A stretch of DNA of 64,000 nucleotides from Alphaproteobacteria bacterium (GCA_965216645.1 CBDCGJ010000026.1:91540-155539), one strand, 5' to 3'. Positions 1 through 37,032 are shown, numbered from the stretch's first letter. Program-made: numbers and translations. Notes: generated by a model not told the origin, from the sequence alone.

Positions 1-452
1 CCTGCGCCATGAAGTGGAGCGGCGCCTTTATCTGGGCTTGCAAGAACTACGATGGCGACGTGCAATCGGATACCGTCGCGCAGGGTTTCGGCTCCTTGGG
101 GTTGATGACCTCCGTATTGATGACGCCCGACGGCAAGACCGTCGAATCCGAAGCCGCGCACGGCACCGTGACCCGACATTATCGCATGCACCAACAAGGG
201 CAGGAAACGTCGACCAATCCGATCGCGTCGATTTTCGCCTGGACCCGGGGTTTGAAATACCGAGCCAATATGGACGAGACCCCGGCCGTCTATGACTTTG
301 CCGAAGCATTGGAAACGGTCTGCGTCAAAACCGTCGAGAATGGGCATATGACCAAAGATCTCGCGCTCCTGATCGGTCCGGAACAGAAATGGCTCACCAC
401 CAATCAGTTCCTCGATAAGCTTGACGAAAACCTCCAGAAGGCGGTGGGCTAA
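1..452 (+). CDS. icd: NADP-dependent isocitrate dehydrogenase, C-terminal fragment (5' end outside window)
   Basis: Frame is open from the window edge to TAA at 450-452. The translation (...[34 protein letters not shown]...) matches the conserved C-terminal block of homodimeric IDH. Confidence 0.9.
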
Positions 453-1633: not shown

Positions 1634-1637
1634 GGAG

Positions 1638-5826: not shown

Positions 5827-7947
5827 TTATCGTTCCGGATCTGCCGGAAAATCTGACAACTGTTTTCTAAGGTCCGCCAGCGTGTTGACCGGCCAACGAC
5901 ATATGCGGTCGCGGCAGACATATACTGTCGGCAATTTGTCGAGCAGATGGCGCTCGCCCAGCAACAGCCAATGCTCACGTCCGCCCGAGGCAGGCCCCGG
6001 CGGTATCCAGGCGACGACGCTACCCGGCGGTTTGCGCGTCCGGATTTCATTTAGAAATGTCACAATGTTTGGGTGATCGCGGGGCCCGACGATTACGATC
6101 TCTCGCGCTCGCTCTGGGCGGAAAGCTAACGCGGCTAACATGCCGGTTGCCTGCGCAGCGTACGCCGTCAGCCGGGTGTCAATCGCGCGTAGCAACAAGT
6201 TACTGCGAGGCAGGAAACTCTTATCCGGGCCGTATAATTCCAAACGAAGCAAAGCTTCAACAATCGCCGCATTGCCGGAAGGAAGCGTTGTCTCTTTGAA
6301 CGGTGTTTGCACGGATACGGCCCGGGCCCTACCGACCGGCGTCATCTGCAGTAATCCCTCTGGCCGAGGATGAAACAACTCTAGCGCCTTGTTCGCCAGT
6401 CTTCGCGCACGATCCAACCATTGCGGATCAAAATCGCTCTCGTAAAGATCAAGCAGCGCAAGGACGGCGTAGGCGTAATCTTCCAAGAACACATCGTTTG
6501 ACGACTTATTCCGGTAACGACTCCGGCTCAAGTCAATGTCGGGCGTCGTCGCCAGCTTGAGGCCCTTAGCGATACCGCGTGCCAACTCCAAATAACGAGG
6601 TTCGCCGAACACTTGGGCCGCCCGCGCATAAGCGCTGATGGCCATCGCATTCCAAGCGGTAATAATCTTTTCATCGCGTTTCGGTGGCGCACGGTTTGTG
6701 CGAGCTTGTTTCAAAAGCTGGAACCTCTTGCTATGCCGGTCAAGGGCGGAGCCTAATTTGCCGACACCGCCACGCCAGCGCAGCACACTGCGTCCCTCCA
6801 CCAAGCCATGAATGGGGTCGACAAACTCTTCAACAAAGTTTTCGGCGGCAAGTCCCAGCACCGACTCTATCTCGTCGACTGTCCAAGTGTAATAGCCACC
6901 GTTTACGCCTTCGGCCTCGGCGTCGAGACTGCCGGCAAAAGTCCCGTCGCTTAAACGCAATGTGTCCGATAAATCATCCAGAATTGCACGGGCGATCCGT
7001 TCGAATAGGGTTCGTCTCACCGGCGAATCAGCCGCACGGTATGCATCGATGTAGAGCGTCGCAAGCAACGCATTCTCGCGCAACATGACTTCGAAATGCG
7101 GGATTTGCCAAGCTCGATCCACACAATAACGGTGGAACGCCCCGCCAAGATGGTCGCGAAGCCCGCCGGCGGCCATGGCCTCCAGCGTAAAAAACACCTG
7201 CCGCAGTTGCTCCTGATCGCCGCGTCGTCCAGCATCATTTAGGAGGAAATCGAGTACATTGACGTAGACGAATTTCGGCTGGCCACCGAAACCGCCATGG
7301 ATCGAATCGAATGCCGAAAGCCAAGATTTAGCCGCCAGCCGTTCCGTGTCGCCGCTGCTATCGCCAACGCGCCGATTCCGTGATTCCGACATGTCTTTGA
7401 GGAAAGCCTCGGCATTTGTTCGAATTCGGTTAGCGTCGTTGGCCCAATCCCGCGTAAACCGCTTCAACACCTCCGCCAATCCTTGTTGATTGGGCGCCGA
7501 TTTCGCGGACATATAGCCAGCGGCGAATATCGGCGTTAGGTTCGGCGCAAGAATGAAGTTTGCGGGCGAGCCGCTTCGACCTGTCATCGCCGCCATCGCC
7601 TCAAAGTAGTAACGAGCGATGTCAGGTCTTTCTTCCTGATCTACAAGGATTGCGACGAAGTTGTCGTTCAGGCTCGAAACGACGTCGGCGTCACGGAAAG
7701 TCGTACGCGCCATGACATGGCACCAGTGACAAGCCGCAAATCCGATCGAAAGAAAAATCGGCTTACCCTTTTCTCGTGCCTCGGCCAATGAACGGTCATC
7801 CCATTGACGCCACGCGATCGGATCATTTCGATGAGAGAGTAGGTATGGGCTGACGGCGTTATCAAGATCGCCTGCTAAGGCCTTCGAACCGACGCAATTC
7901 ACGCAGATAAAAATGAAGATCATGCATAGGAGACGAGACCTCATCAT
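5827..7947 (-). CDS. Secreted thioredoxin-fold DUF255 (YyaL/SPATA20-like) protein with a C-terminal alpha/alpha-toroid-like domain
   Basis: 706 aa. Has an N-terminal signal peptide (MMRSRLLCMIFIFICVNCVGSKALA) and the DUF255 hallmark GKPIFLSIGFAACHWCHVM. Its ATG overlaps the upstream stop (ATGA at 7944-7947). Confidence 0.85.
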   Translation of the reverse strand: MMRSRLLCMIFIFICVNCVGSKALAGDLDNAVSPYLLSHRNDPIAWRQWDDRSLAEAREKGKPIFLSIGFAACHWCHVMARTTFRDADVVSSLNDNFVAILVDQEERPDIARYYFEAMAAMTGRSGSPANFILAPNLTPIFAAGYMSAKSAPNQQGLAEVLKRFTRDWANDANRIRTNAEAFLKDMSESRNRRVGDSSGDTERLAAKSWLSAFDSIHGGFGGQPKFVYVNVLDFLLNDAGRRGDQEQLRQVFFTLEAMAAGGLRDHLGGAFHRYCVDRAWQIPHFEVMLRENALLATLYIDAYRAADSPVRRTLFERIARAILDDLSDTLRLSDGTFAGSLDAEAEGVNGGYYTWTVDEIESVLGLAAENFVEEFVDPIHGLVEGRSVLRWRGGVGKLGSALDRHSKRFQLLKQARTNRAPPKRDEKIITAWNAMAISAYARAAQVFGEPRYLELARGIAKGLKLATTPDIDLSRSRYRNKSSNDVFLEDYAYAVLALLDLYESDFDPQWLDRARRLANKALELFHPRPEGLLQMTPVGRARAVSVQTPFKETTLPSGNAAIVEALLRLELYGPDKSFLPRSNLLLRAIDTRLTAYAAQATGMLAALAFRPERAREIVIVGPRDHPNIVTFLNEIRTRKPPGSVVAWIPPGPASGGREHWLLLGERHLLDKLPTVYVCRDRICRWPVNTLADLRKQLSDFPADPER

Positions 7948-8549
7948 TCATCGGCAGATGCCGTCACTTCGTAAGACGCAATTCGAATAGATTTCGGATC
8001 GGTAACACAGGCCTGCCGGCAGAGCCCACAACCCACGCAATGTTTCCAGTCGACAAATGGCCGGATGCCCAAAAAACGGAAAGCGCCCTCGACGGGACAC
8101 ACATCTCGGCAAGCCCCGCATTCCGGCCCCAGAAAAGGTAAACAGCTGCTTTCATCAATCAAGGCCGTAGCCATGGGGCCCAGCGGGATGTCATCTTCGT
8201 CAGCCTCATCGGGGATTGATAAGGCTTTTGGCTCACATGCTTGAACGCAGGGCCAGTCTTCACACAGCAGACAGGCGTTCGACACAAGATCTAGCGCCGG
8301 CGTCCCGGCGGCGCGACGGCCATATCTTTCGTCTAACGGGATGATCACCCCTGTCGGGCAAACGCGTAAACAGTCGTGGCAACGCGTACACAAATCGAGG
8401 AAGCGCAATTCCGGCGCGGCAAATGGCGGACGAAACCAAAGTTTCGATATTTCCATCGACCTCTGATCCGAAGCTTCGGTCGCCGCCTTCAAACTCCGCT
8501 GGAAGAACTGCCGGCGGCTTAACTTTTGCGAATTTCGATCCTCTACCAT
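7944..8549 (-). CDS. NapF-like polyferredoxin (several 4Fe-4S motifs, SRRQFF pseudo-Tat N-terminus)
   Basis: Shows SRRQFFQ, RPPFA, and the cluster motifs CTRCHDCLRVCP, CLLCEDWPCVQAC, CGACRDVCP and CVGCGLCRQAC. ATG 8549 has a GAGGAGG SD that overlaps the upstream stop codon. The 8594 start would overlap the previous gene. Confidence 0.75.
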   Translation of the reverse strand: MVEDRNSQKLSRRQFFQRSLKAATEASDQRSMEISKLWFRPPFAAPELRFLDLCTRCHDCLRVCPTGVIIPLDERYGRRAAGTPALDLVSNACLLCEDWPCVQACEPKALSIPDEADEDDIPLGPMATALIDESSCLPFLGPECGACRDVCPVEGAFRFLGIRPFVDWKHCVGCGLCRQACVTDPKSIRIASYEVTASADE

Positions 8550-8557
8550 CAGCCTCC

Positions 8558-10090
8558 TCAAAACCGCATGGTCATGGGTTGCATCAGCAACCATAGGTGA
8601 AACGCGGTAACCGTGACGGCGAAAACGGCAATCGGCAGCGCCAACAGCCGAGCCTGACCTTCGTCAACTTTGGCAAGATCATGGGTCCGCCGCTGAACAA
8701 CCCTTAGCGCAATCCACAATCCGGCGACCAACAACAAGGCCTGGCAGGCATGCCAGAGTGACGGATCAAGCCAAAGGCCCATCATCCGTGCATGTTGTTC
8801 CTCCATGCTCAAAGGGACCGCATTTCGACCCAGCGGGTCGAGAAACACGGCCGATAGACCGTCGCCCTCGCGGAACAAATGGTTCAGGTTGTGCGCCAAA
8901 TGATAAGTGAAGGCGAGCGGCAGCGCGGTGAACGCGAAATGGCAAAACACGTCCCGAAACCTCGACGTCACACCGCTGCACTTGCGCGCTATCCATATGA
9001 AGCCAGCATAAATCGCCACAGGCACAACAACCGCCAGCAGGAGAGCGGCCGTGAACATCGGCAATAACACCGGGGCACCGCCAAATGCCCGAGCCGCGGC
9101 GACCTGCATGTCCTGCCAAATGGGCAGCATGGTCCAACCATGGAATTCGGTCAGGGCAAGCAATACCAGCATGAACCAAGCTTCATCCCAATGCGGTCGC
9201 GCGTCTTGAATGGCTTCAGCGGCCGGACTGCGGACCCGCCAGGCAATGTTATCCGCGGGGCAGGCCCGAGCGCAGTTTCCGCAGGAGGTGCAATAGGTAT
9301 TCTGCGTCAATCGTCCCATAACCAAGCGCGTGGGACAGGGATCGACATCTTCGGACCCGTGATAACATTCGAGACTTGTACAGGATGCGCAGATCGAACT
9401 GTCGATCGGACGTAAGGCTACCGGCGCCAGTTGGGCATACAACCCGACGGTCCGACCGACAGGACAAATGTAGTTACAAAATGCGTTGCGTTCGAACAGG
9501 GCCAAAAGGGTCGTCGCAAATACTAGCATCGCAAGTCCCATGACCGCCGTCGCAAAAGGATCGACGGTGACACCCACCCCCAGTTCCAGCCACGTCAAGC
9601 CGACGAACAAGATCAATGCCGGCCATACGCTACGTAAAGTCTTCGGGACTGGTAGACTGAGGCTGGCATCGGGATCGGCGCGGCGCCAAAGCCGACGTTT
9701 GACCAACCATTGAGCCATGCTGTTCCACGGACACACACCGCACCAAGCCGATCCCGTGAATAGGATAGCCAGGACAAGACCCGCCCACCACAAGTTCCAC
9801 GTCAGAACCGTCGCGGCGTTGCGTTCTGGAATAGGAGACCCCGACAATCCGGCAATTATGATGACAAAAAACAAAAATACGAAGATCAACTTCAGAACAA
9901 ATAAGTACCAAGGTTGCCGAAGTAATCGCCGCGCCGCGGTACCGACGAACGGCATCCGCGCGACGGACAAATATCCGCTGGCTACGACTGTCTGTCGCGG
10001 CTTCAGCGCAATCCAAACATAGGCGGCAATCATCACGACCCAGACAGCGGCGGCCCAGCCGATCGGTAAGCCTGGATGAGACATTGTCAT
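8558..10090 (-). CDS. Polytopic membrane polyferredoxin (NapH/CcoG(FixG)-like N-terminal half plus His-rich multi-TM C-terminal half)
   Basis: 510 aa. Shows CGVCPW and CNYICPVGR membrane-proximal Cys motifs, then CASCTSLEC..CP and CTSCGNCARACP. Several hydrophobic helices lie on both sides. Confidence 0.75.
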   Translation of the reverse strand: MTMSHPGLPIGWAAAVWVVMIAAYVWIALKPRQTVVASGYLSVARMPFVGTAARRLLRQPWYLFVLKLIFVFLFFVIIIAGLSGSPIPERNAATVLTWNLWWAGLVLAILFTGSAWCGVCPWNSMAQWLVKRRLWRRADPDASLSLPVPKTLRSVWPALILFVGLTWLELGVGVTVDPFATAVMGLAMLVFATTLLALFERNAFCNYICPVGRTVGLYAQLAPVALRPIDSSICASCTSLECYHGSEDVDPCPTRLVMGRLTQNTYCTSCGNCARACPADNIAWRVRSPAAEAIQDARPHWDEAWFMLVLLALTEFHGWTMLPIWQDMQVAAARAFGGAPVLLPMFTAALLLAVVVPVAIYAGFIWIARKCSGVTSRFRDVFCHFAFTALPLAFTYHLAHNLNHLFREGDGLSAVFLDPLGRNAVPLSMEEQHARMMGLWLDPSLWHACQALLLVAGLWIALRVVQRRTHDLAKVDEGQARLLALPIAVFAVTVTAFHLWLLMQPMTMRF

Positions 10091-10105
10091 CGCCCCGATC
10101 TCACG

Positions 10106-10705
10106 CTACATCTCGTCGCGGCGGCGATGGCTTGACCGGATCTTTTCGGTCACCGCCCGGCGCCGTTGTATGAGCGTGACACCAACGAGGACAATGGCCA
10201 GTGCCGCCACCGCCAATCCGATCGGTCCCCAGGGAGATGGGGCGCCGATACGGAGCGGGAAATCTATTATGTAGGGTTCGCCATCGGCCTCGAAGCTGGC
10301 CGCGATGATGAAGTCCCCGCCCCTCGAAAACTGGAAGTTCTGTCGATAGACCGCATCGTCCAATAGTTGGCGGCCGATTTCCTCTGTCTCTTCGTCGAAG
10401 CCAAACACGCCCAACCAAGTATCGTCGCGGACAGAGAACAACACCGCTCCATCGTAGGCTTGGCCGGATTGCAAATGCCTGACATACAGATTTATCCGCC
10501 CAGGCTCGCCTGGCTTGGGAAAGGCCGGGAAGATCATGTAATTGACTTCGTAGTCACCGATCACCGTTTCCACCTGCATGGCCGGCGGCGTATTCGAATC
10601 TTCGTTCAACGCATAAGATGGACGGCCCAGCACATGATGCGCTTCTAGCCGAGCTGGCAATAGAACCGCTGTTGCGACAATGAAAAGTAAGAGCGTCCGT
10701 GTCAT
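10106..10705 (-). CDS. Secreted, C-terminally membrane-anchored protein with a FixH/YtkA-like beta domain; predicted mature N-terminus His-His
   Basis: Signal peptide MTRTLLLFIVATAVLLPARLEA followed by HHVLGRPSY. A C-terminal TM helix (GPIGLAVAALAIVLVGVTLI) is followed by RRR. ATG 10705 overlaps the upstream stop (ATGA). The longer ORF to 10903 overlaps the NapG-like gene. Confidence 0.6.
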   Translation of the reverse strand: MTRTLLLFIVATAVLLPARLEAHHVLGRPSYALNEDSNTPPAMQVETVIGDYEVNYMIFPAFPKPGEPGRINLYVRHLQSGQAYDGAVLFSVRDDTWLGVFGFDEETEEIGRQLLDDAVYRQNFQFSRGGDFIIAASFEADGEPYIIDFPLRIGAPSPWGPIGLAVAALAIVLVGVTLIQRRRAVTEKIRSSHRRRDEM

Positions 10706-11301
10706 ACGCGAGCTTTCTTTTCGGGTCGTTGGACGATCCAGATCGGCAAGCTCGGATGTGGGCAAACCTCGACGCAGATCCCGCAACCGACGCAACCTTC
10801 CTTCACTGCCGGTCGATATTGATTCCACATTGTAAACGCGATCGCCCTCTCCCCTAACGGGCAAGCTACCGCGCAAGCGCCGCAAATACCCCGGTCGACC
10901 CATGGATAGCAGGCTCGCTGATCGATGAAGGCGATGCCCATGTCGACCTTCCGTATCGGTGTCGGCTCAAGCGCGCCCGTGGGACAGACTTCCATGCATT
11001 TTCCGCAAAGCGTACAGGCGGCTTCGGTCGGGTCGATATAGGGCGTGTTATGGCCGGTCCCGCCGTCGCGGCGATGAAACTTAATGCAACGCGGCGGACA
11101 GACGATGGCACAAAGGTCGCACGAGATGCAGGCCTCGATGAATGCATCGTCGTTGGCGAGAGCGCCAGGCGGACGCATATAGTTGCGCTCCGGCCGCGCC
11201 CGCGCCGGGGCCGAGAGTTGCACTAAACCGAAAGGTAAGGCGCACGCCAAGCAGGCCACCGCACCGGCGGCTGCGTATTTGCCAACCTCCCGACGGTTCA
11301 T
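10702..11301 (-). CDS. NapG/MauM-family periplasmic-type 4x[4Fe-4S] ferredoxin, second copy
   Basis: Shows RPPGAL..FIEACISCDLCAIVCP, CTLCGKCMEVCP, CGACAVACP and CVGCGICVEVCP. The N-terminus is a degenerate Tat-like motif (NRREVGKY). Start overlaps the NapH-like stop (ATGA). Confidence 0.8.
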   Translation of the reverse strand: MNRREVGKYAAAGAVACLACALPFGLVQLSAPARARPERNYMRPPGALANDDAFIEACISCDLCAIVCPPRCIKFHRRDGGTGHNTPYIDPTEAACTLCGKCMEVCPTGALEPTPIRKVDMGIAFIDQRACYPWVDRGICGACAVACPLGERAIAFTMWNQYRPAVKEGCVGCGICVEVCPHPSLPIWIVQRPEKKARV

Positions 11302-12311
11302 GATGTCGCTCCGTCAACCGCTTCGGGCCTATCAACGCGGTTCTTTTGATAAGCGCGTCCTCGATGCCCAGGTCCCTGCGGCGATAAGTCCGAAATCCGA
11401 AGCGAAAATGTCATCGCATCGACCGGGCAAATCGCCATGCAGGCTGTGCAATTGTTGCATTCCTGCCCAAACCCGTCGCGCATGGGGTCGAGCCCGAATT
11501 CGCAGATGGCATTGCATTTATTGCAGTCGTTGCAGTTTTCGACGATACGCTGGATGCGAAGTATCCGGTACCGTCCCAACAGGACATAAAGCGCGCCGCC
11601 GGGGCACAAATATCGGCAAAAACCGCGCCGTGCGACCAACAAATCGAACAACAAGGTAACGAAGAACAATACCATACCGATACCGAAACCTTGTAGAGCG
11701 ATGGCGTAAAACAGTTCTCGCCCAATGATCGCGGGCGGATAAACTCCTGCAACTAAAACCGACCCCGACAAGGCCGACAATAGTAGTCCAATGATTAGGA
11801 CGAGGTATTTCAGCCGTCGGTCGAAAAAACGATGACCGCTGCGGATTCCAACGAACCGTAGCCACGCAGCGACGTTTGAGTTCAGCTCATAGATCAAGGT
11901 GGCGGGACAAATCCAGCCACAGAAAAAACGCCCGAATAGAATAGTCAGCAAAACGGGGATAGCCGCTGTCAGGATGAAGGGCCAGTTCAAACTCATAGAC
12001 GCGGCCGCTTGACCGACCACCGCGAGCGGGTCCGATAGCTGTAGCCCCCAAAACGTGCCGGACCAAGTATTGCCTTTGATCGCGTCCAGGCCATCTGCCG
12101 GATCCTCGACAAACCGGCCGGTCAGCGCCTCGACGATGTCATAGATCCGCTTCTCACTTGGCGCCAGCAGGTCATAGGCATGGGCGGAGACAAAAGTTTG
12201 ATAGACATAGAGATAGGGCAACGCAATCAACATGGCGAAGACCAGACAGAGACTGACCCAACGCAGTTTGTTGAGATGCCGCCACAGGAAGAAGGGTTTG
12301 CGCGCGCTCAT
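11298..12311 (-). CDS. NapH/MauN-family membrane quinol-dehydrogenase subunit
   Basis: Has four or more TM helices, CGWICP and CRYLCPGG motifs, and C-terminal CNDCNKCNAIC and CNNCTACMAICP motifs. Confidence 0.85.
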   Translation of the reverse strand: MSARKPFFLWRHLNKLRWVSLCLVFAMLIALPYLYVYQTFVSAHAYDLLAPSEKRIYDIVEALTGRFVEDPADGLDAIKGNTWSGTFWGLQLSDPLAVVGQAAASMSLNWPFILTAAIPVLLTILFGRFFCGWICPATLIYELNSNVAAWLRFVGIRSGHRFFDRRLKYLVLIIGLLLSALSGSVLVAGVYPPAIIGRELFYAIALQGFGIGMVLFFVTLLFDLLVARRGFCRYLCPGGALYVLLGRYRILRIQRIVENCNDCNKCNAICEFGLDPMRDGFGQECNNCTACMAICPVDAMTFSLRISDLSPQGPGHRGRAYQKNRVDRPEAVDGATS

Positions 12312-12317
12312 GTCAAG

Positions 12318-12881
12318 CTATCCATGGCTCGGTTGTATCCTGATGGCTTGCGGCAATTGGATGCAGCTCCGTTCGCAAAGGCCGCAACCGACACAGTTTT
12401 CGAGCACATGCGGCTGTTCCAGGCGGCCCACACGGATTGCCACGTCCGGCAGCGGACATGCCCGATAACAGACGCCGCAGGTTTTGCCCTGGTAGGACAG
12501 GCAAAGTTGTTCATTGACCACCGCCCGGCCCATACGAACTTCGCCCAGAATGCTATCGATTTTGCGGGAGATCTCTCGGATCGCACCCGTCGGGCAAACC
12601 TCGCCGCATTTCATACACAGCACACAGGCTTTCTCGCGGGCGATGATGTAAGGCGTGTTGAGCGAGGCATGCCCGTTTTCCAACTCGAAGAAATTGATAC
12701 ATCGATTTGGGCAAATTTCGCCGCACTGCCCGCAATGTATGCAGGTTGCGACGAAGCTCTCTTCGGGCAAAGCGCCAGGAGGCCTCAAATATCGCAGCGA
12801 CGGCCGACCGCGTGCGGCTCGCACAGCGGTCGGTGTTACCGCGGCGGCAAATAGGGAAAACAGGAAACTTCGGCGGTCCAT
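12318..12881 (-). CDS. NapG/MauM-family Tat-signal 4x[4Fe-4S] ferredoxin
   Basis: Has a DRRSFL Tat motif, then LRPPGALPEESFVATCIHCGQCGEICP, CVLCMKCGEVCP, CGVCYRACP and CVGCGLCERSC. An AGGAA SD lies 6 nt upstream. Confidence 0.85.
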   Translation of the reverse strand: MDRRSFLFSLFAAAVTPTAVRAARGRPSLRYLRPPGALPEESFVATCIHCGQCGEICPNRCINFFELENGHASLNTPYIIAREKACVLCMKCGEVCPTGAIREISRKIDSILGEVRMGRAVVNEQLCLSYQGKTCGVCYRACPLPDVAIRVGRLEQPHVLENCVGCGLCERSCIQLPQAIRIQPSHG

Positions 12882-12936
12882 CGCTTATTCCTATCGTCCA
12901 GGAGCGGTCCGAGCACCGCTCGGTTGACTACGGCGT

Positions 12937-15645
12937 CTAGATTTTTTCGATCCTCGCGGCGCTCTTCTTGAAATCGACTTGGCCGGACACGGGGTCCCAA
13001 ATACGGCTCGTGGTGCCGTTGGCCAACCACTTGTTCTTCTTCGGATCCGCGCTGTCCGCCACCGATAAATTCCAGGGACCGAACATATAACCCCGTGGAA
13101 CGTTATTGCGGGCCGGCTTGACGAGCGAGTTCGTGCCCACCTGGGCGCGCGCTTCCAAGGAGCCGCGGCGGGTATGCACGCGCACCTTGTCGCCATCCTC
13201 GATCCCCAGATCCTTTGCGTCATCCGGGTGCATTTCGACATACATTTCTGGCACGAGACGGCGCGTCGTCGGGCTGCGGTTCGACTTCGCGGTGTGGAAA
13301 TGTTCGTAAACCACCCCGAGACCGAACCAATAGGGATACTTGTCCTCCGGCACCTCATTCCAAAGCTTGCCCCGGAAATCCTCGTCCGGCATATCCGGCG
13401 TCAAGGCATTGTCGCGGGCGGCATGTATCAGGTCCAAGTGATCGATGGTGTAGAGCCCCTCTTCGGCGCCAAACCGCATCAGCTCTTTGGTCAACTCGGC
13501 CCGCTTCGAGTAATCCTGCTTGCAGAGTTTCATGTGAACCTTGCCGTCCTTGGTGCGGAAGTAACCGTATGGACGGTTCTCCCAAGCGCCTTCTTGAGAC
13601 ATGTACCGCCGTTTGGACCCACCATTTTGGGCGATCTCATAAGTCGGCGCGGGCCACTGGATGCCGCGTAGGTCGGCCAATTGTTCGTAAAGACCGACCT
13701 CGTCTAGTTTTTCGACCTCAAGCATGCCGGTCAGATCGGTATCGGTGCCGGCAGAAGCCTTGACCACGTCACGGAATATCTCCTCGGAATCGTAGAAGCC
13801 GTCGTCCTTACGTTCGTATGGCAGCGCCTTTTTCATATCGAGGCCAAGCAGTTCGCCGATCTCCTTCGCTTTGTCGATCACCATGTCCATGTCGGGCAAG
13901 CATCCCTTTGGCGGCTCGGCTGCCTTTTGGCAGATGTTCAATCTGCGTTCCGACGAAATGTACACCCCTTCGACCTCACCCCAAGTGGCGGCCGGGAAGA
14001 TAACGTCGGCATATAGATTGTTTGGCGCGTGCCGATAAATCTCCTGCACGACATTGAACGTTTTGGCGATCGCCGGCCGCACCAGATTGTACTGATCCGG
14101 TAAGTCGATATGAGTGGCATAGACAAAGAAGAAAGCTTTGACGTCTCCTTTCAACGCCCGTTCCATCATGCCGACCGCAAATCCCGGGTTCTTCGAATTC
14201 ATGGCGTTGACGAGGTTCTGTTCGGGCACGCCCCATTGCTTCGCCATATGCTTGCGATGACTATCGTTGCTGAGCGGTTGATTGAAGGGGAGCCGTCCGG
14301 TCAATCCACCGGTAAAGCGTTCGCCCATGGCGTTCGGCTGACCGGTCATGGAAAACGGTCCACAGCCGGGCTTCGCCAGATTGCCCGTCAAGGTCAGCAA
14401 ATTGATTATCGAGATGACGTTGTATTGGCCGTGGATATGCTGGTTGTAGCCGATACCCCACATAATGATAACGCCGCCATAACCGCCTTTTTGCGTCCCT
14501 TTGGCGCGTGCCAAACGCTTGCGGGTGGCGTCGGCGAACATTTGCGCGACTTGGCGAATTTTCTCGACGGAGACATCGTGGTTGGGGCCGCCCATACGGT
14601 CCTGTACCTGCTCCGGGCCGTAATTCGCCATCACGCCATCAACATATTCCTTCCAGCCGGTGGCATGGGATTTCACAAATTCCCAGTCAATGACGTCGTC
14701 ATGCTCCTTCAGGAGCACGTGAGCGATAGCATTGAGAAAGCTGATATCGCCATTCAAGATTGGGATGTGAACGGTGTTTTTTGGGTTGATGTCCTCATAC
14801 CCCATGACCGTTCCCGTGCGGCGTGGATCGACGACGACGGTGGGAATGTCTTTCTTCTTTTTGTGATCCGCGGCGCGCCAAAAGATGATCGGGTGAGCCT
14901 CGCGTGGATTGTGACCGAAATGCATGATCATGTCGCACATTTCGATATCCTCGTAGGCCAGCGGCGGCGTATCCGAGCCGAGGGTCGCGAAATAGCCTGT
15001 GACCGCTGAGGTCATGCACATCCGCGCGTTCGCCTCGATGGTATTCGACCCCAGCACGCCTTTCATAAACAGGTTCTCTAGATACTGCCCCTCCATCGTG
15101 AGTTGGCCGGAACCGTAAAGCCCGATGGAATTGCCGCCATAGGTCTTGGCGAGATGGGCGATCTTATGGGCGACCATGTCGGACGCTTCCTTGTAAGGAA
15201 CCCTCAAGAAGTGTTCCTCGTCAAACGAGCCCTTGGTTTTCGACACGAACTCCAAATCGCCGTGATCCGGCTTCTGCCATTCGGCCCATACGTCCTTGCG
15301 GACATAGGTGTCGCCTTCCATGCGGTCGACATACATCGGCTCCGCCGCGGTCAAGCCCTTGATGCATTGCAGGCCATAATTCGTCGGATGGTCCTTGTCC
15401 GGACGCATGGAGACGATCTTGCCGTTTTCGGCCTGTATGATCGTGCCGCATCCGACCCCGCAATAGGGACATTGAGCCAATGCGGTTGTCCGATTTTCCT
15501 CACGCGCTTGCGCTTCGGCCTTTCCGACGATCTCAAGCTCGGGATTTTGTCCGCTCATAAGGCTGGCACCAGCGGCCGCACTACCAACGAAGGCGCTCGT
15601 CTTCAAAAAGTTGCGGCGGGAAAGCTTGTTCTTAATCCGTTTCAT
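12937..15645 (-). CDS. Tat-exported bis-MGD molybdoenzyme of the Nap/Nas/Fdh clade (NapA-like catalytic subunit; substrate unproven)
   Basis: 902 aa. Shows an SRRNFLK twin-arginine motif, a CPYCGVGCG-x27-C FeS motif followed by IKG, NARMCMTSAV (Cys-ligand context as I recall it for NapA), GCGPFSMTGQPNA, and a C-terminal DPVSGQVDFKKSAARIEKI. Confidence 0.88.
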   Translation of the reverse strand: MKRIKNKLSRRNFLKTSAFVGSAAAGASLMSGQNPELEIVGKAEAQAREENRTTALAQCPYCGVGCGTIIQAENGKIVSMRPDKDHPTNYGLQCIKGLTAAEPMYVDRMEGDTYVRKDVWAEWQKPDHGDLEFVSKTKGSFDEEHFLRVPYKEASDMVAHKIAHLAKTYGGNSIGLYGSGQLTMEGQYLENLFMKGVLGSNTIEANARMCMTSAVTGYFATLGSDTPPLAYEDIEMCDMIMHFGHNPREAHPIIFWRAADHKKKKDIPTVVVDPRRTGTVMGYEDINPKNTVHIPILNGDISFLNAIAHVLLKEHDDVIDWEFVKSHATGWKEYVDGVMANYGPEQVQDRMGGPNHDVSVEKIRQVAQMFADATRKRLARAKGTQKGGYGGVIIMWGIGYNQHIHGQYNVISIINLLTLTGNLAKPGCGPFSMTGQPNAMGERFTGGLTGRLPFNQPLSNDSHRKHMAKQWGVPEQNLVNAMNSKNPGFAVGMMERALKGDVKAFFFVYATHIDLPDQYNLVRPAIAKTFNVVQEIYRHAPNNLYADVIFPAATWGEVEGVYISSERRLNICQKAAEPPKGCLPDMDMVIDKAKEIGELLGLDMKKALPYERKDDGFYDSEEIFRDVVKASAGTDTDLTGMLEVEKLDEVGLYEQLADLRGIQWPAPTYEIAQNGGSKRRYMSQEGAWENRPYGYFRTKDGKVHMKLCKQDYSKRAELTKELMRFGAEEGLYTIDHLDLIHAARDNALTPDMPDEDFRGKLWNEVPEDKYPYWFGLGVVYEHFHTAKSNRSPTTRRLVPEMYVEMHPDDAKDLGIEDGDKVRVHTRRGSLEARAQVGTNSLVKPARNNVPRGYMFGPWNLSVADSADPKKNKWLANGTTSRIWDPVSGQVDFKKSAARIEKI

Positions 15646-15660
15646 GATATCGACCCCGAT

Positions 15661-16314
15661 CTAATTTTTCGCCAGGCTTCGTAGATAGACGATGATGTCG
15701 TCGATCTCTTGATCCGACAGATTGGCTAACCCTCCTGGCCCCTGGAACGGCAACATTCGCGTATTTGATCGACCTTGCTTAATGGTGACGCGGATGAAGC
15801 CATCCGAGACACTGTTAAGAAATCCAGGTAGACCGATAGCGGTTCCCGTACCCCCAGCCTCATAACCGTCGCCGTCCAAGCCATGGCAGGTGGAACAAAT
15901 ATTGTCGTACCAGAGCTTGCCGAGCCGCGGATCGCCCTGCGCGGTTGGCTGTGCGTCGATTTCCTTGGAAATGTTCTTAACATCCGTATGCGCCCGCAGA
16001 TACGTGACGATGTCACGAACGTTTTTGCGGCCTAAATGCGCAAAGGGAGGCATACCGGTATCCTCACGGCCATCTCGAATTGTCGACATGAAAAACTTGT
16101 CCGACGCGACAGAGAGTAATTCGGGATTTGTCAGCGATGGCGCGATACCCGGTTTCCCAATCGCGTCCGCCTGGTGACACATGGCGCAATTTTCAACGAA
16201 TTGCGCCTCGCCATTCTTCACTTCGGCCGGACCGGCCTTTTGCGCATCGGCGGCATTAGTAGCGCTCATGAGCGTGAATGTAATCAATCCAACAAACAAA
16301 ATATTTTTTCCCAC
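15661..16314 (-). CDS. Dihaem class I c-type cytochrome (c4/CcoP-like), secreted
   Basis: Two CxxCH sites (CAMCH, CSTCH), each followed by a distal MPPF/MLPF Met. GTG 16314 has an AAGGAGGG SD 8 nt upstream and yields a cleaner signal peptide than the TTG at 16332. Confidence 0.85.
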   Translation of the reverse strand: MGKNILFVGLITFTLMSATNAADAQKAGPAEVKNGEAQFVENCAMCHQADAIGKPGIAPSLTNPELLSVASDKFFMSTIRDGREDTGMPPFAHLGRKNVRDIVTYLRAHTDVKNISKEIDAQPTAQGDPRLGKLWYDNICSTCHGLDGDGYEAGGTGTAIGLPGFLNSVSDGFIRVTIKQGRSNTRMLPFQGPGGLANLSDQEIDDIIVYLRSLAKN

Positions 16315-16338
16315 CAGTTCACCCTCCTTCAATGCGGT

Positions 16339-17037
16339 TCAGTCACGCCGCGGTTCGTCACCCCAATCACCGTCGTCAGCCGTCGCCATGCCCTTGTGGC
16401 ATTGTTTGCACTTGATTTTTTCGTTTTCGATACGCTCGTGCAGATCGTCCATCAAAGCGTTCGGGTCGTAGTCGGACGGAAGCGAATGCGCGATCCCTTT
16501 GTGGCAATCGATGCAGGTTTGGCCCCAGTCGGCGCCAAGTCGATGGAACAGACCGGCCGAGGATTTTTGCGATTGCAGGTTCATGAACGTCTCGCCATGA
16601 CAATTGCGGCATTCGCGGGAATTCGTAAGCTTCATCACAGCCCAAACATGCTTGGCCAGCGCAGGCCGGCGTGCTTCGAACTTCTCCGGCGTGTCGATCG
16701 TACCGACAGCCCAATGATAAAGTTCGTTCGTCGCCTTAACTTTGCGGATCACTTTATGCACCCATTCCTTCGGAACATGACAATCCGGGCAGGTCGCCCG
16801 CACACCGGTGCGGTTGGTGTAGTGAATGGTTTTTTTGTATTCCGCGTAAACGTTGACCTCCATCACGTGACATGAAACGCAGAATCGCTCGGTATTCGTA
16901 AGCTCCAAACTCCAATTAAACCCGCCCCAAGCAATCACGCCGCCCAAAAAGACGAAGAGGAGCGACGTGATGGGAAAACTGACGACCGCGCTGCTTATCC
17001 AGCGAAGGCAAGATCGCAGTCGCACCACCCATTTCAA
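16339..17037 (-). CDS. NapC/NirT-family membrane-anchored multihaem cytochrome with five CxxCH sites
   Basis: N-terminal TM helix. Haem sites CVSCH, CPDCH, CRNCH and CIDCH, plus an extra C-terminal CKQCH. TTG start with an AAGGAGGGG SD. Confidence 0.85.
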   Translation of the reverse strand: MKWVVRLRSCLRWISSAVVSFPITSLLFVFLGGVIAWGGFNWSLELTNTERFCVSCHVMEVNVYAEYKKTIHYTNRTGVRATCPDCHVPKEWVHKVIRKVKATNELYHWAVGTIDTPEKFEARRPALAKHVWAVMKLTNSRECRNCHGETFMNLQSQKSSAGLFHRLGADWGQTCIDCHKGIAHSLPSDYDPNALMDDLHERIENEKIKCKQCHKGMATADDGDWGDEPRRD

Positions 17038-17129
17038 CCATCCCCTCCTTAACTATTGCACCGCGGTAAATTCGAGCCCGCATCTTCCAATGAATAAAAT
17101 GAGCTTAGCGGCCCCAGGTCGACGGCAAG

Positions 17130-17143
17130 TTGATCTCGGTCAA
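17130..17143. promoter_or_regulatory. FNR/FixK-type anaerobox (TTGA-N6-TCAA)
   Basis: TTGATCTCGGTCAA is a perfect TTGA-N6-TCAA and misses the TTGAT-N4-ATCAA form by one base. It is centred about 100 nt upstream of the NapC-like start, in the only sizeable gap upstream of the operon. Confidence 0.5.
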
Positions 17144-17215: not shown

Positions 17216-17788
17216 TTAAATCGTTACCCACCCCTCCGGCGGTGATCCTTTGCCCGGATGAAGAGCGCCGCAATTCGGGCAAGTACGGGCGGCCTCGTCG
17301 GCATGAAAGGCGTCGAAGAAATCGGGAAGTTGGCTCACAATACCGTCGGCCGACGTCAATGCGCCTTCGGCTCGATGGACGAGCGCTTCACAGTCGAAAC
17401 AATACCATTCGAAGGCCTCTTTCATGCCGAACATACGAGGGCTCTCGACAACAAGCCCGATCGAGCCCACTTCGGGACGTTGCGGCGCATGGCGCACATG
17501 CGGCGGCAAGAAAAACACCTCGCCCTGCCGGATCGGAACATCATAGATTTTCCCGCGATCCGCGATCTTCAAAATCATGTTGCCGCGGTACTGATAGAAC
17601 CATTCCTCGACCGGATCGTCATGAAAATCGACGCGCGTATTGGGGCCGCCGACAACCATGACAATCATACCTGTATCCTCGTGCAACATTTTATTGCCGA
17701 CAGGCGGTTTCAGGAGATGCTGGTTTTCACTGATCCAGTTTTCGAAGTTGAAGGCGCGGAATGTTGGGTGCAATTGGTAACCGCTCAT
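17216..17788 (-). CDS. nbaC: 3-hydroxyanthranilate 3,4-dioxygenase
   Basis: Cupin core (...VDFHDDPVEEWFYQYRGNMILKI...FFLPPHVRHAPQRP...) plus a C-terminal rubredoxin-like CFDC...CPNC site. ATG 17788 overlaps the upstream stop (ATGA). Confidence 0.9.
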   Translation of the reverse strand: MSGYQLHPTFRAFNFENWISENQHLLKPPVGNKMLHEDTGMIVMVVGGPNTRVDFHDDPVEEWFYQYRGNMILKIADRGKIYDVPIRQGEVFFLPPHVRHAPQRPEVGSIGLVVESPRMFGMKEAFEWYCFDCEALVHRAEGALTSADGIVSQLPDFFDAFHADEAARTCPNCGALHPGKGSPPEGWVTI

Positions 17789-18726
17789 GTCGATGCTCCT
17801 CCGACGGCCGCCGCGGTAGCCTGGCCCAACCCGCAGCGTTCGAACGCCTCCCGGGTTAGCCGTTTTTCTTCGTCGGTTAGATTCAACATAGGACGCCGCA
17901 CAGGTCCTCCGACCTGCCCAAGTAGTTCCTGCCAATATTTTTTGTGTGCCTGCGGCTTTGCTGCGGGACGGCTGTCCTTCAGCGCTTGGCGCACCGGCTG
18001 CAAGCTTTGCCAAACCCATCTTGCTTTGGCGTGGTCGCCCTTGAAGGCCAAATCGGTATATTCACGCATCCGCAGGTCGCGCTCCGTCTGGATGAGGTAA
18101 GGCGGTGAGGAACAAAGATAAAGCCGCCAATCCAACTCGATAACATTGTCGAGCCATTCTTCTTCGGAGGCCGTACTGACTAACAGTTTGTCGCCGGCAA
18201 GATCCGTCAACGCCGCATACATGTCCCGAGGCACGCTATATTTGATAGCCACAATATTCGGCAGATCAGCGATCCGCGAGACCAGTTCGGGGCTCATCAA
18301 ATAACCGCTGTCCGGATGGCTCCACAAGGCGATTCCGATATCTAGCTGCTCGCAAAGATAGGCATAATAGCGATACAACAAATCGTCACGATCGTTCACG
18401 AAATGCAGGACTGGCGCATGGATCACGATGTAGTCCGCGCCGACATTTTGGGCGTGGTAGGCCAGCTCCAGCACCGTGTCCATGTTCTGATCCGAACAGG
18501 ACATTATGGTGGCCCCTTTTTGCCCGGCCGCTTCGACAGCGATTTCAAAGCAGCGTTTACGTTCTTCGATCGATAAGGAGAAATACTCGCCCTGCTTGCC
18601 GGCAATGAAGACCCCATCGATCTCGAGACTCTCGACCCAGTATCGGATATTGTCCCTGAAACCCTCGTCGTTCAGCGACAGATCTTCATGAAAGGGCGTT
18701 AGCGCGGCCGCCCATATTCCGCGCAT
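17785..18726 (-). CDS. Dihydrodipicolinate synthase/N-acetylneuraminate lyase (DapA) family class I aldolase
   Basis: 313 aa. The N-terminus (GIWAAALTPFHEDLSLNDEGFRDNIRYWVE..GVFIAGKQGEYFSLSIEER) is typical of the DapA family. Substrate unknown. Confidence 0.8.
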   Translation of the reverse strand: MRGIWAAALTPFHEDLSLNDEGFRDNIRYWVESLEIDGVFIAGKQGEYFSLSIEERKRCFEIAVEAAGQKGATIMSCSDQNMDTVLELAYHAQNVGADYIVIHAPVLHFVNDRDDLLYRYYAYLCEQLDIGIALWSHPDSGYLMSPELVSRIADLPNIVAIKYSVPRDMYAALTDLAGDKLLVSTASEEEWLDNVIELDWRLYLCSSPPYLIQTERDLRMREYTDLAFKGDHAKARWVWQSLQPVRQALKDSRPAAKPQAHKKYWQELLGQVGGPVRRPMLNLTDEEKRLTREAFERCGLGQATAAAVGGAST

Positions 18727-36027: not shown

Positions 36028-36056
36028 ACGCTAACCGGATGATAAGGAGCCTAACG

Positions 36057-37019: not shown

Positions 37020-37032
37020 GAAGGAGTTGACA

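What the first reader, a model, noticed from the sequence alone, without database searches (positions are those of the whole stretch)
5827..17143. Ten-gene FNR-boxed operon around a Nap-clade periplasmic molybdoenzyme with a non-canonical accessory set (no NapD, no NapB, five extra redox/maturation genes)
Seen in sequence: ten same-strand ORFs run from 17037 down to 5827. Gaps between them are 6-55 nt, or they share 4-nt ATGA start/stop overlaps (11298-11301, 10702-10705, 7944-7947). This looks like one translationally coupled unit, preceded by a TTGA-N6-TCAA box. The gene order is:
- a five-haem NapC/NirT-type protein
- a dihaem class I cytochrome c
- a 902-aa Tat-signal bis-MGD enzyme with CPYCGVGCG..C, NARMCMTSAV and a NapA-like C-terminus
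- a NapG-like ferredoxin
- a NapH-like membrane subunit
- a second NapG-like ferredoxin
- a secreted protein with a C-terminal membrane anchor
- a 510-aa membrane polyferredoxin
- a NapF-like ferredoxin
- a secreted DUF255 thioredoxin-fold protein

Established knowledge: canonical nap loci carry the Tat chaperone NapD and usually the dihaem NapB. No ORF here resembles either, nor NapE or NapL. The proximal genes recall the napC-napM-napA-napD-napG-napH layout I remember for Desulfovibrio desulfuricans (a NapB-independent NapA). The distal five genes are not part of any nap, nas, fdh, psr/phs/ttr or arr/arx locus I know.

Inference: this is either an unusual NapB/NapD-independent nitrate reductase with an added redox or metal-handling module, or a Nap-clade enzyme acting on a different oxyanion.
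Basis: partly seen in the sequence, partly recalled or inferred. Interest (0 to 1): 0.75.

Follow-up and report, generated by a model that had tools for sequence, protein, structure and literature searches.

The report
Uncharacterised Nap-like molybdoenzyme respiratory operon
This is a real, anaerobically regulated ten-gene operon for a widespread but unstudied relative of the bacterial periplasmic nitrate reductase, with its own cytochrome partner and a unique conserved helper protein; its substrate (probably nitrate, possibly another oxyanion) has never been tested.

Summary
Ten tightly packed minus-strand genes (5827-17037) sit behind a 9/10 FNR-type box.

The 902-aa Tat-exported Mo-bisPGD subunit is not a canonical NapA. 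It scores 335 bits against a NapA cut-off of 904. With three deeper relatives it forms a 100%-bootstrap clade outside a 95%-supported NapA clade. It keeps the Cys-Met/Asp/Gln/Arg core shared by Nap and Nas nitrate reductases, but lacks two acidic channel residues.

Relatives at 78-88% identity occur in at least 80, and up to 266, GTDB species. These are mostly marine, from low-oxygen, vent and deep-sea settings, and include Shewanella and Photobacterium isolates. All carry only generic names.

In 53 loci with enough sequence, 52 carry the dihaem class-I cytochrome c, NapG-like, NapH-like and NapF-like genes and an orphan membrane-anchored beta-sandwich with an invariant His-His N-terminus. NapC is present in 45, the 510-aa polyferredoxin in 38, the second NapG-like gene in 36 and DUF255 in 14. 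No NapB or NapD is present.

Best reading: a new family of quinol-dependent periplasmic oxyanion reductase, most likely for nitrate. A different substrate is not excluded. I found no paper describing it.

The parts
17130..17143 (-). FNR/CRP-family box TTGACCGAGATCAA (9/10 to TTGAT-N4-ATCAA), about 100 nt upstream of g1
   Evidence: Conserved position in relatives: 24/58 loci have a match of at least 9/10, against 3% of controls.
16339..17037 (-). g1: membrane-anchored NapC/NirT-family cytochrome with five CxxCH (quinol dehydrogenase)
   Evidence: PF03264, 237 bits. TIGR02161 scores 258 against a cut-off of 310. The fifth haem motif is at least 95% conserved in 58 homologues. Present within 10 kb in 45/53 loci, either upstream or downstream.
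15661..16332 (-). g2: Sec-exported dihaem class-I cytochrome c; proposed direct electron donor, taking the place of NapB
   Evidence: Two Cytochrome_CBB3/Cytochrom_C domains and no NapB hit. Adjacent to the Mo gene in 52/53 loci, and also in the 55%- and 51%-identity outgroups.
12937..15645 (-). g3: 902-aa Tat-exported, Cys-ligated Mo-bisPGD/[4Fe-4S] catalytic subunit of a distinct family next to Nap and Nas
12318..12881 (-). g4: Tat-signal NapG-like periplasmic polyferredoxin
   Evidence: Best NCBIfam hit is NapG, 128 bits against a cut-off of 269. Present in 52/53 loci.
11298..12311 (-). g5: NapH-like membrane ferredoxin (Fer4_5), partner of g4
   Evidence: NapH scores 136 bits against a cut-off of 234. 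Present in 52/53 loci.
10702..11301 (-). g6: second NapG-like ferredoxin with an RR motif and a hydrophobic N-terminus; variable member
   Evidence: NapG scores 86 bits against a cut-off of 269. Present in 36/53 loci.
10106..10705 (-). g7: orphan secreted Ig-like beta-sandwich with a C-terminal TM anchor. The mature N-terminus His-His (HHVLGRPxYxLxEDSNTP) is invariant in the 37 aligned sequences (one Arg-His in 61 locus homologues). Core member and putative metal-binding subunit.
   Evidence: No Pfam or NCBIfam hit. The family has 906 clusters; every name given among the 120 listed is 'hypothetical'. AF2 model pLDDT 90.6. Weak Foldseek hits to CrdA, PmoD and Zcp. Present in 52/53 loci.
8558..10090 (-). 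g8: 510-aa polytopic membrane polyferredoxin. It has a NapH-like half (two CxxCP motifs plus two 4Fe-4S motifs) and an extra C-terminal helical bundle with invariant H317 and YHxAHNLxH.
   Evidence: Fer4_5 hit, and NapH at only 35 bits. The family has 937 clusters. AF2 model pLDDT 78.8. No PDB fold match. Present in 38/53 loci.
7944..8549 (-). g9: NapF/NapG-like 4x[4Fe-4S] ferredoxin. It has an RRxF motif but no hydrophobic signal core, so it is probably cytoplasmic, as NapF is.
   Evidence: NapG scores 103 against a cut-off of 269, and NapF 66 against 102. Present in 52/53 loci.
5827..7947 (-). g10: Sec-exported DUF255 thioredoxin-fold (CHWC) protein with a large C-terminal domain; occasional member
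   Evidence: PF03190, 177 bits. Present in 14/53 loci, sometimes divergently upstream.

Best explanation
The locus encodes a previously uncharacterised family of quinol-dependent periplasmic oxyanion reductase. The family branches beside, not inside, NapA within the Nap/Nas nitrate-reductase radiation. It is switched on under low oxygen by an FNR/CRP-family regulator.

Proposed electron path (inferred): quinol is oxidised by the pentahaem NapC-type protein g1 and/or the NapGH-like pair g4-g5. Electrons pass to the periplasmic dihaem class-I cytochrome c g2, which replaces NapB, and then to the [4Fe-4S] and Mo-bisPGD centres of g3. There a trigonal oxyanion, most probably nitrate, is reduced.

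g9 is a NapF-like cytoplasmic Fe-S protein that may help mature g3 before Tat export; no NapD is involved in cis.

g7 is a core, membrane-anchored periplasmic beta-sandwich with an invariant His-His amino terminus. g8 (a NapH-like polyferredoxin with an added His-rich helical bundle) and g6 accompany it in most loci. Together they form a second membrane redox module. I infer that this module binds a metal and either docks or feeds the reductase, or handles a metal or cofactor.

Shown here:
- operon anatomy
- family placement
- active-site core
- co-conservation of the genes
- the conserved regulator box

Inferred only:
- direction of electron flow
- substrate
- roles of g6 to g10
For: Anatomy:
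- Ten coupled genes.
- The FNR-type box is conserved in 24/58 loci against 3% of controls.

g3 placement:
- It has Molybdop_Fe4S4, Molybdopterin and Molydop_binding domains and a Tat signal.
- The closest solved structure is D. desulfuricans NapA, E = 4e-75.
- The Cys140, Met141, Asp155, Gln346 and Arg354 equivalents are kept, as in all Nap and Nas representatives, and unlike FDH, which has Cys-His.
- It fails the NapA, Nas and Fdh equivalog cut-offs.
- It forms a 100% clade with P0241, P0242 and P0243, outside a 95% NapA clade that contains canonical, epsilon-type and small monomeric NapA.

Partners:
- NapC family, NapG-like and NapH-like assignments.
- A dihaem class-I cytochrome is adjacent even in the outgroups.
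- Ca. Parabeggiatoa carries only napC, the cytochrome gene and the Mo gene side by side, with none of g4-g10 detected in the 8 kb downstream. This suggests they form the minimal chain.

Co-conservation across 53 loci is. No other gene family recurs in the flanks.

g7 is an orphan family with an invariant HH N-terminus, a confident beta-sandwich model, and weak similarity to periplasmic Cu/Zn-binding proteins.
Against: - No experiment exists on any member; I found no paper describing the family.
- Two acidic channel residues are replaced: Glu156 (NapA) becomes Thr, and the Glu/Asp after the substrate Arg, conserved in both Nap and Nas, becomes Phe. Met308 becomes Ile. This weakens the inference that the substrate is nitrate.
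- The partner is a class-I (typically high-potential) cytochrome, unlike NapB.
- Shewanella already carry two canonical Nap systems (abstract of PMC6308320; S. gelidimarina reference). A third nitrate reductase would therefore be redundant there.
- The metal-binding role of g7 and g8 rests on invariant His residues and on Foldseek hits at E about 1e-3 only.
- My tree is neighbour-joining on representatives chosen by similarity to the query, not a maximum-likelihood tree on curated references.
Confidence: 0.5

Rival explanations
1. Same architecture, different substrate. The family is a respiratory reductase for another high-potential oxyanion available in sea water or sediments, such as iodate, chlorate/perchlorate, selenate or bromate. 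The g6-g7-g8 module and DUF255 are adaptations to that chemistry, for example handling a reactive product or supplying a metal.
For: - The clade-wide loss of the acidic residue next to the substrate Arg, which both Nap and Nas keep, together with Glu156->Thr and Met308->Ile. One search lists Arg354, Asp155, Glu156 and Asp355 as the charged channel residues.
- About 60-75 extra residues lie within 604-763 relative to NapA representatives.
- A class-I dihaem cytochrome is the partner.
- The locus coexists with two canonical Nap systems in Shewanella.
- Identity of 78-88% across Alpha- and Gammaproteobacteria suggests a horizontally spread specialised trait.
- NapA enzymes are known to be promiscuous for chlorate and perchlorate (PMC12769810).
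Against: - The Mo ligand and the Arg/Asp/Gln core are those of nitrate reductases.
- No chlorite dismutase, peroxidase or other product-detoxifying gene recurs in 80 loci.
- Nitrate is by far the most abundant such acceptor in the habitats where the family is found (my own knowledge).
- Position 156 also varies among Nas enzymes.
Confidence: 0.3
2. The enzyme works in the oxidising direction. A periplasmic substrate (for example nitrite, or a reduced sulfur or arsenic species) is oxidised, and electrons flow to the high-potential dihaem cytochrome c and onward to a terminal oxidase or reductase.
For: - The partner is a class-I cytochrome c.
- Many hosts are sulfur oxidisers: Thiohalobacter, Thioalkalispiraceae, Sulfuriflexus, Thiogranum and Parabeggiatoa.
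- C. jejuni NapA can interconvert nitrate and nitrite (title cited).
Against: - The FNR-type box is typical of anaerobic reductases.
- Two kinds of quinol dehydrogenase module (NapC, NapGH-like) are linked to the enzyme.
- The family is also present in heterotrophs such as Shewanella, Photobacterium and Ruegeria.
- The active site resembles Nap/Nas, not Aio or Sox.
Confidence: 0.07
3. It is simply an ordinary nap operon whose genes are poorly annotated. The distal genes are unrelated neighbours.
For: - Best structural and HMM matches are NapA, NapC, NapG and NapH.
- One JGI record calls a homologue 'nitrate reductase NapA'.
Against: - All equivalog cut-offs are missed by wide margins.
- The family is excluded from the NapA clade.
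- There is no NapB or NapD.
- The layout matches none of the four described nap operon types, napEDABC, napDAGHB, napCMADGH and napAGHBFLD.
- The distal genes g7 and g9 are present in 52/53 loci.
Confidence: 0.03

Closest known systems
Periplasmic nitrate reductase NapA, especially the small monomeric, NapB-independent type of Desulfovibrio desulfuricans (napCMADGH)
   Same: - Tat-exported subunit with an N-terminal 4-Cys [4Fe-4S] motif and a conserved Lys.
- Cys-Met Mo-ligand motif, and Asp155, Gln346 and Arg354 equivalents.
- NapC-type and NapGH-type quinol dehydrogenases encoded alongside.
- No NapB.
- Best PDB match is 2jio.
   Different: - Only 32% mean identity, with a maximum of 37%.
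- 335 bits against a cut-off of 904.
- Lies outside the 95% NapA clade.
- Glu156->Thr, Met308->Ile and Asp/Glu355->Phe.
- About 60-75 extra residues in 604-763.
- No NapD.
- A dihaem class-I cytochrome instead of NapM.
- Core extra genes g7 and g9, and often g6 and g8.
Assimilatory nitrate reductases NasA/NasC/NarB
   Same: Shares the CM..D..Q..R signature and position 156 is non-acidic in both (variable in Nas, Thr here). Mean identity is about 30%.
   Different: Nas enzymes lack a Tat signal and are cytoplasmic. They keep the Arg-Glu pair. They have no cytochrome or NapGH partners.
NapGH quinol dehydrogenase, and the wider NapH/NosR/CcoG Fer4_5 membrane polyferredoxins
   Same: g4-g5 give NapG and NapH as best hits. 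g8 has the two CxxCP motifs and two 4Fe-4S motifs of NapH.
   Different: All fall below the family cut-offs. g8 has an extra N-terminal helix with an invariant HPGLP, and a C-terminal bundle of about 200 aa with invariant His residues that has no counterpart in solved structures.
Membrane-anchored or periplasmic copper-binding beta-sandwich proteins (PmoD, H. pylori CrdA, Zcp)
   Same: g7 has the same general fold. Like PmoD it has a C-terminal TM helix (that detail is my own knowledge). Foldseek gives E about 1e-3 and TM-score up to 0.75 normalised to the target. The invariant N-terminal His-His recalls histidine-brace sites, but that is inference.
   Different: No sequence similarity to any Pfam or NCBIfam family. 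Metal binding is untested. The match quality is too low to claim homology.
Cytochrome-c-dependent oxyanion reductases such as IdrAB (iodate) and SerABC (selenate)
   Same: Functionally analogous idea: a soluble class-I c-type cytochrome donates electrons to a periplasmic Mo-bisPGD reductase of a high-potential oxyanion. This rests on my own knowledge plus PMC8692401, listed.
   Different: Those catalytic subunits belong to the AioA-like and NarG-like lineages. g3 scores only 98 bits against a cut-off of 359 on the arsenite-oxidase model, and it has a Cys ligand.

Membership tests
NapA (NCBIfam NF010055 / TIGR01706 equivalogs) | Whole-protein HMM score above the curated cut-off (904 / 930.55 bits) | tested here: not met
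   335.6 and 312.7 bits. A canonical NapA representative, P0293, scores 1546.
NapA | Phylogenetic placement inside the NapA clade | tested here: not met
   Neighbour-joining with 100 bootstraps gives a NapA clade at 95% that excludes the family. Family plus NapA as sisters gets only 22%.
NapA | Active-site and channel residues Cys140, Met141, Asp155, Glu156, Met308, Gln346, Arg354 and Asp/Glu355 (D. desulfuricans numbering) | tested here: inconclusive
   Five are kept: Cys, Met, Asp, Gln and Arg. Three are changed: Glu156->Thr, Met308->Ile and 355->Phe. All 11 NapA representatives have CMDEMQR and at least 80% have Arg-Glu.
NapA | Tat signal peptide and periplasmic location | tested here: met
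   SRRNFLK motif. TIGR01409 scores 19.8 against a cut-off of 16.7.
Canonical nap operon | NapD chaperone gene, and (in heterodimeric types) NapB | tested here: not met
   No product hits NapD or NapB models. Intergenic gaps are 55 nt or less. No such family recurs in 80 loci (ORFs of 90 aa or more). A NapD gene elsewhere in the genome could not be excluded.
Canonical nap operon | Nitrate reductase activity of the product | not testable with these tools
   Needs an enzyme assay or genetics.
Mo/W-bisPGD (DMSO reductase / MopB) superfamily | Molybdop_Fe4S4, Molybdopterin and Molydop_binding domains above Pfam cut-offs | tested here: met
   56, 132 and 63 bits.
Formate dehydrogenase alpha (TIGR01591) | Score above 666 bits, and a Cys/Sec-His motif | tested here: not met
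   338 bits. The motif is Cys-Met, whereas FDH representatives have Cys-His.
NapC/NirT cytochromes | PF03264 domain; TIGR02161 cut-off of 310 bits | tested here: inconclusive
   Pfam is met, at 237 bits against a cut-off of 24. TIGR02161 scores 258, below 310. There are five CxxCH instead of four.
NapG / NapH / NapF equivalogs | Scores above 269 / 234 / 102 bits | tested here: not met
   g4 scores 128, g6 86 and g9 103 on NapG. g5 scores 136 and g8 34 on NapH. g9 scores 66 on NapF. These are best hits only, so the genes are '-like'.
DUF255 (PF03190, Thioredox_DsbH) | Pfam domain above cut-off, with a CxxC motif | tested here: met
   177 bits against a cut-off of 27. CHWC is present.
Histidine-brace / periplasmic copper-binding proteins (for g7) | Metal bound by the N-terminal His amine and side chain | not testable with these tools
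   Only an invariant HH after the predicted cleavage site and weak fold matches. Needs metal analysis, EPR or a structure.

The most novel reading that the evidence does not exclude
The family is a new class of respiratory reductase for an oxyanion other than nitrate; marine iodate is one candidate. Its universally linked g7 subunit, together with g8 where present, would be a new type of membrane redox module. In it an N-terminal His-His metal site on an anchored beta-sandwich is served by a NapH-like polyferredoxin. It would then be a missing enzyme for an ocean-scale redox process, carried by OMZ, vent and deep-sea Proteobacteria.
Probability: 0.3. Interest if true: 0.85.

Novelty: new variant of a known kind. 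Interest (0 to 1): 0.68.

Why it matters
The system occurs in at least 80, and up to 266, species-level genomes. About 900 protein clusters at 90% identity exist for each of its two private subunits. The hosts come from oxygen-minimum zones, hydrothermal vents, sediments and the deep sea.

Every copy is annotated generically, or is at risk of being counted as napA or nasA in metagenomic nitrogen-cycle budgets.

If it reduces nitrate, it is a third, mechanistically distinct periplasmic route with a different cytochrome partner, no NapD, and a new core subunit. Marine denitrification and DNRA inventories should distinguish it. If it reduces something else, it identifies an unknown respiratory process.

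It is present in cultured Shewanella (benthica, gelidimarina, abyssi), Photobacterium (profundum, indicum) and Ruegeria isolates, so the question is directly testable by genetics and enzymology.

Tried and rejected
- **FNR box in the window alone.** The window-only statistic was not significant: 2 sites found against 1.0 expected. I replaced it with a cross-locus test.
- **Foldseek of the g8 model against the PDB.** Nothing meaningful; best E = 0.03 with TM-score about 0.1.
- **g7 against the 180-aa anchored protein after NapGH in the Bacillota-like outgroup.** The hhalign comparison was not significant (probability 3%). Only the architecture and position are shared.
- **Formate dehydrogenase identity.** Rejected: the motif is Cys-Met rather than Cys-His, and the score is 338 against a cut-off of 666.
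- **AioA/IdrA identity.** Rejected: a Cys ligand is present, and the score is 98 against a cut-off of 359.
- **NapM equivalence of g2.** Rejected: g2 has two class-I haem domains.
- **Characterised relatives in B. azotoformans and Sporomusa ovata.** Both have ordinary nap clusters with NapD, so neither belongs to this family.
- **Plasmid carriage.** No plasmid in PLSDB carries a family member; all hits are below 60% identity and the best about 30%.
- **Literature.** Six full-text searches found no description of this gene set.
- **Recurrent flanking genes.** I looked for nir, nor, nos, cld and regulators. None recur. Only MoaA (9 loci), pyrophosphatase (6) and TauE (5) turn up.

Full report
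**1. Observation**

Using the biologically sensible starts, the junctions are +6, +15, +55, +6, -4, -4, +15, +8 and -4 nt. Three of them are ATGA start/stop overlaps.
- g7 starts at 10705. This is supported by 60 homologue N-termini.
- g9 starts at 8549, behind a GAGGAGG.

The region upstream of g1 contains TTGACCGAGATCAA (17130-17143), a 9/10 match to TTGAT-N4-ATCAA. In this window alone the loose pattern is no commoner than chance: 2 found against 1.0 expected. I therefore tested conservation. Of 58 related loci, 24 have a match of at least 9/10 within 260 nt upstream of the first gene, against 3% of 1,600 random windows from the same loci. The box is therefore a conserved feature. It cannot distinguish FNR from ANR, Dnr or NnrR-type regulators.

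**2. Gene products**

| Gene | Product |
|---|---|
| g1 | NapC/NirT-family cytochrome with five CxxCH. The fifth is at least 95% conserved in 58 homologues. |
| g2 | Sec-exported dihaem class-I cytochrome c, with no NapB similarity. |
| g3 | Tat-exported protein with Molybdop_Fe4S4, Molybdopterin and Molydop_binding domains. |
| g4, g5 | NapG and NapH as best hits, but below the curated cut-offs. |
| g6 | A second NapG-like ferredoxin. |
| g7 | No family hit. |
| g8 | Fer4_5 membrane polyferredoxin, only faintly NapH-like. |
| g9 | NapG/NapF-like, with an RRxF motif but no hydrophobic signal core. |
| g10 | Sec-exported DUF255 protein with a CHWC motif. |

Nothing resembles NapB, NapD, NapE or NapL.

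**3. The catalytic subunit is not a NapA**

- It scores 335 and 313 bits on the two NapA equivalog models, whose cut-offs are 904 and 930. It scores 338 bits on Fdh-alpha, whose cut-off is 666.
- An exhaustive HMMER search of 1.84 billion representatives shows a tight family. Scores drop steeply: 1041 bits (P0241, 55% identity), 775 (P0242, 51%), 476 (P0243, 40%), then about 380 bits or less.
- The next neighbours are small monomeric-type NapAs (661-765 bits on the NapA model) and Nas/Fdh-like proteins. Canonical NapA representatives score 1312-1546.
- In a neighbour-joining tree of 104 full-length sequences with 100 bootstraps, the family plus P0241-P0243 is monophyletic at 100%. A NapA clade containing canonical, epsilon-type and small monomeric forms has 95% support and excludes the family. 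Sisterhood of the two is unsupported at 22%.
- The window protein is on average 32% identical to NapA representatives, 30% to Nas and 29% to FDH. NapA and Nas are 36% identical to each other.

**4. Active site**

Aligned to D. desulfuricans NapA, the Mo-ligand Cys140, Met141, Asp155, Gln346 and the substrate-binding Arg354 are all kept. They are also kept in every Nap and Nas representative. FDH representatives have Cys-His instead.

Three positions differ:
- Glu156 becomes Thr. It is Glu in all 11 NapA representatives and variable in Nas.
- Met308 becomes Ile.
- The acidic residue after the Arg becomes Phe. This Arg-Glu pair is present in at least 80% of both Nap and Nas representatives and is Asp355 in Dd NapA. 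It is Met, Leu and Leu in P0241-P0243.

A 2026 review names Arg354, Asp155, Glu156 and Asp355 as the charged residues of the Dd NapA substrate channel (PMC13223375). So the family has a nitrate-reductase core with a less acidic channel.

It also carries about 60-75 extra residues within 604-763 relative to NapA representatives.

**5. Distribution and synteny**

Family-specific peptide patterns found 266 stretches encoding a relative among GTDB species genomes. The best 80 are 78-87% identical. The hosts include:
- Rhodospirillaceae, Kiloniellaceae, Magnetovibrio and Hyphomicrobiaceae
- Ruegeria sp. HKCCD8929
- Thiohalobacter, Thioalkalispiraceae, Sulfuriflexus and Thiogranum
- Motiliproteus and Ca. 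Parabeggiatoa
- Photobacterium profundum and P. indicum
- Shewanella benthica, S. gelidimarina and S. abyssi

Many of the MAGs come from Saanich Inlet, the Arabian Sea, Tara OMZ samples and vents.

Where a source gives a name it is mostly generic ('molybdopterin-dependent oxidoreductase'). One record says NapA and one says assimilatory nitrate reductase.

Occurrence in the 53 loci that have at least 6.5 kb downstream of the Mo gene:

| Gene | Loci (of 53) |
|---|---|
| g2, g4, g5, g7, g9 | 52 each |
| NapC (g1; upstream or downstream) | 45 |
| g8 | 38 |
| g6 | 36 |
| g10 (DUF255) | 14 |

The one exception is Ca. Parabeggiatoa, which has only napC, the cytochrome gene and the Mo gene together.

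Clustering all flanking ORFs from the 80 loci found no other recurrent family. The only extras are MoaA in 9 loci and a hemerythrin-domain gene inside the Shewanella version. No PLSDB plasmid carries a member.

The outgroups also pair the enzyme with a dihaem class-I cytochrome and NapG/H-like genes:
- P0241: cytochrome, Mo enzyme, NapH-like, ferredoxin.
- P0242, in a genome with Bacillota-like neighbours: MoCo biosynthesis genes, TatC, a ferredoxin, TatA, cytochrome, Mo enzyme, NapG, NapH, then a 180-aa anchored secreted protein.

**6. The private subunits**

g7 belongs to a family of 906 clusters at 90% identity. None of those listed has a Pfam domain, and every name given is 'hypothetical'. 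After the signal peptide the sequence A|HHVLGRPxYxLxEDSNTP is essentially invariant. AlphaFold gives a confident model (pLDDT 90.6) of a signal helix, an Ig-like beta-sandwich and a C-terminal transmembrane helix. Foldseek finds only weak matches, at E about 1e-3. Among them are the periplasmic copper proteins CrdA (TM-score 0.75 normalised to the target) and PmoD, and the Zn/Cu protein Zcp.

g8 belongs to a family of 937 clusters. It has an invariant N-terminal HPGLP, the two CxxCP and two 4Fe-4S motifs of NapH, and an added C-terminal helical bundle with invariant H317 and YHxAHNLxH. It has no counterpart among solved structures.

A metal-binding role for g7 and g8 is my inference from these invariant histidines. 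It has not been shown.

**7. Mechanism**

The best-supported reading is a quinol-dependent periplasmic reductase.
- NapC-type and/or NapGH-like modules oxidise quinol.
- The dihaem cytochrome c replaces NapB as the immediate donor.
- g3 reduces the oxyanion.
- g9 acts as NapF does.
- g7, with g8 and g6 where present, forms a second membrane module that docks or feeds the enzyme, or handles a metal.

The conserved FNR-type box and the marine low-oxygen distribution fit anaerobic respiration. Nitrate is the most probable substrate because the catalytic core is the one shared by Nap and Nas.

Four points keep a different substrate open:
- the altered channel
- the class-I cytochrome partner
- coexistence with two canonical Nap systems in Shewanella (abstract of PMC6308320; S. 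gelidimarina's two napA genes are cited)
- the near-80% identity across bacterial classes

I put a different oxyanion at about 0.3.

**8. Comparison with what is known, and novelty**

The 2026 review lists four nap operon types: napEDABC, napDAGHB, napCMADGH and napAGHBFLD. This layout is none of them.

But NapD is missing here, and the cytochrome is of a different class.

Six full-text searches and seven papers read gave no description of this family or of g7 and g8.

I rate it a new variant of a known kind. It is a distinct family of the Nap/Nas radiation with its own conserved partner set, it is widespread, and it is experimentally accessible.

Noticed in passing
Proteins P0301, P0330 and P0348: Tat-signal Mo-bisPGD proteins of about 930-957 aa and about 27% identity align along the whole of g3, including much of the 604-763 segment. 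They lack the Cys Mo ligand (Ser or Arg at that column) and the Arg. They match no NCBIfam equivalog. They may be another uncharacterised periplasmic molybdoenzyme family.
   Followed up: partly
L078:17392-18015 (Shewanella benthica); similar in L074 and L079: A 207-aa hemerythrin-domain (PF01814) gene sits between the g9 homologue and napC in the Shewanella/Colwellia versions of the operon. It may be an O2/NO-sensing or iron-centre-repair function.
   Followed up: partly
L021 (Ca. Parabeggiatoa sp. HSG14), 1-3955 and downstream: Only napC, the dihaem cytochrome gene and the Mo-enzyme gene are adjacent. No NapGH-like genes, g7, g8 or g9 lie in the 8 kb downstream. This is the single exception among 53 loci and a hint at the minimal functional unit.
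   Followed up: no
L083:3656-14744 (GCA_021608135.1): A 51%-identical relative (837 aa) sits in a cluster with MobA-like, MoeA, MobB, MoaD/E, TatC and TatA genes, a dihaem cytochrome c, NapG/H-like genes and a 180-aa secreted, C-terminally anchored protein. That protein has no detectable similarity to g7. The neighbours (LiaF-like and others) suggest a Bacillota host.
   Followed up: partly
window 37027-37040: The only other TTGA-N6-TCAA site in the window (TTGACAATGTTCAA), at the end of the ORF 36039-37019. Its context was not examined.
   Followed up: no
window 26994-29693 (minus strand): An 899-aa ORF with no Pfam hit at E <= 1e-5, lying among flagellar genes (FlhB at 21286-22404, FliM at 32505-33602).
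   Followed up: no
window 17216-18019 (minus strand): The gene immediately upstream on the same strand encodes a 3-hydroxyanthranilate 3,4-dioxygenase domain preceded by about 85 extra N-terminal residues in the longest ORF. It is followed upstream by a DHDPS-family gene and an 821-aa sensor kinase/response-regulator hybrid. No link to the operon is apparent.
   Followed up: no
One of the 41 long loci (order g1-g2-g3-g4-g5-g6-g7-g9-g9-g3-g4-g1): One genome appears to carry a second, partial copy of the cluster (ferredoxin, Mo enzyme, NapG-like, NapC) directly downstream of the first.
   Followed up: no
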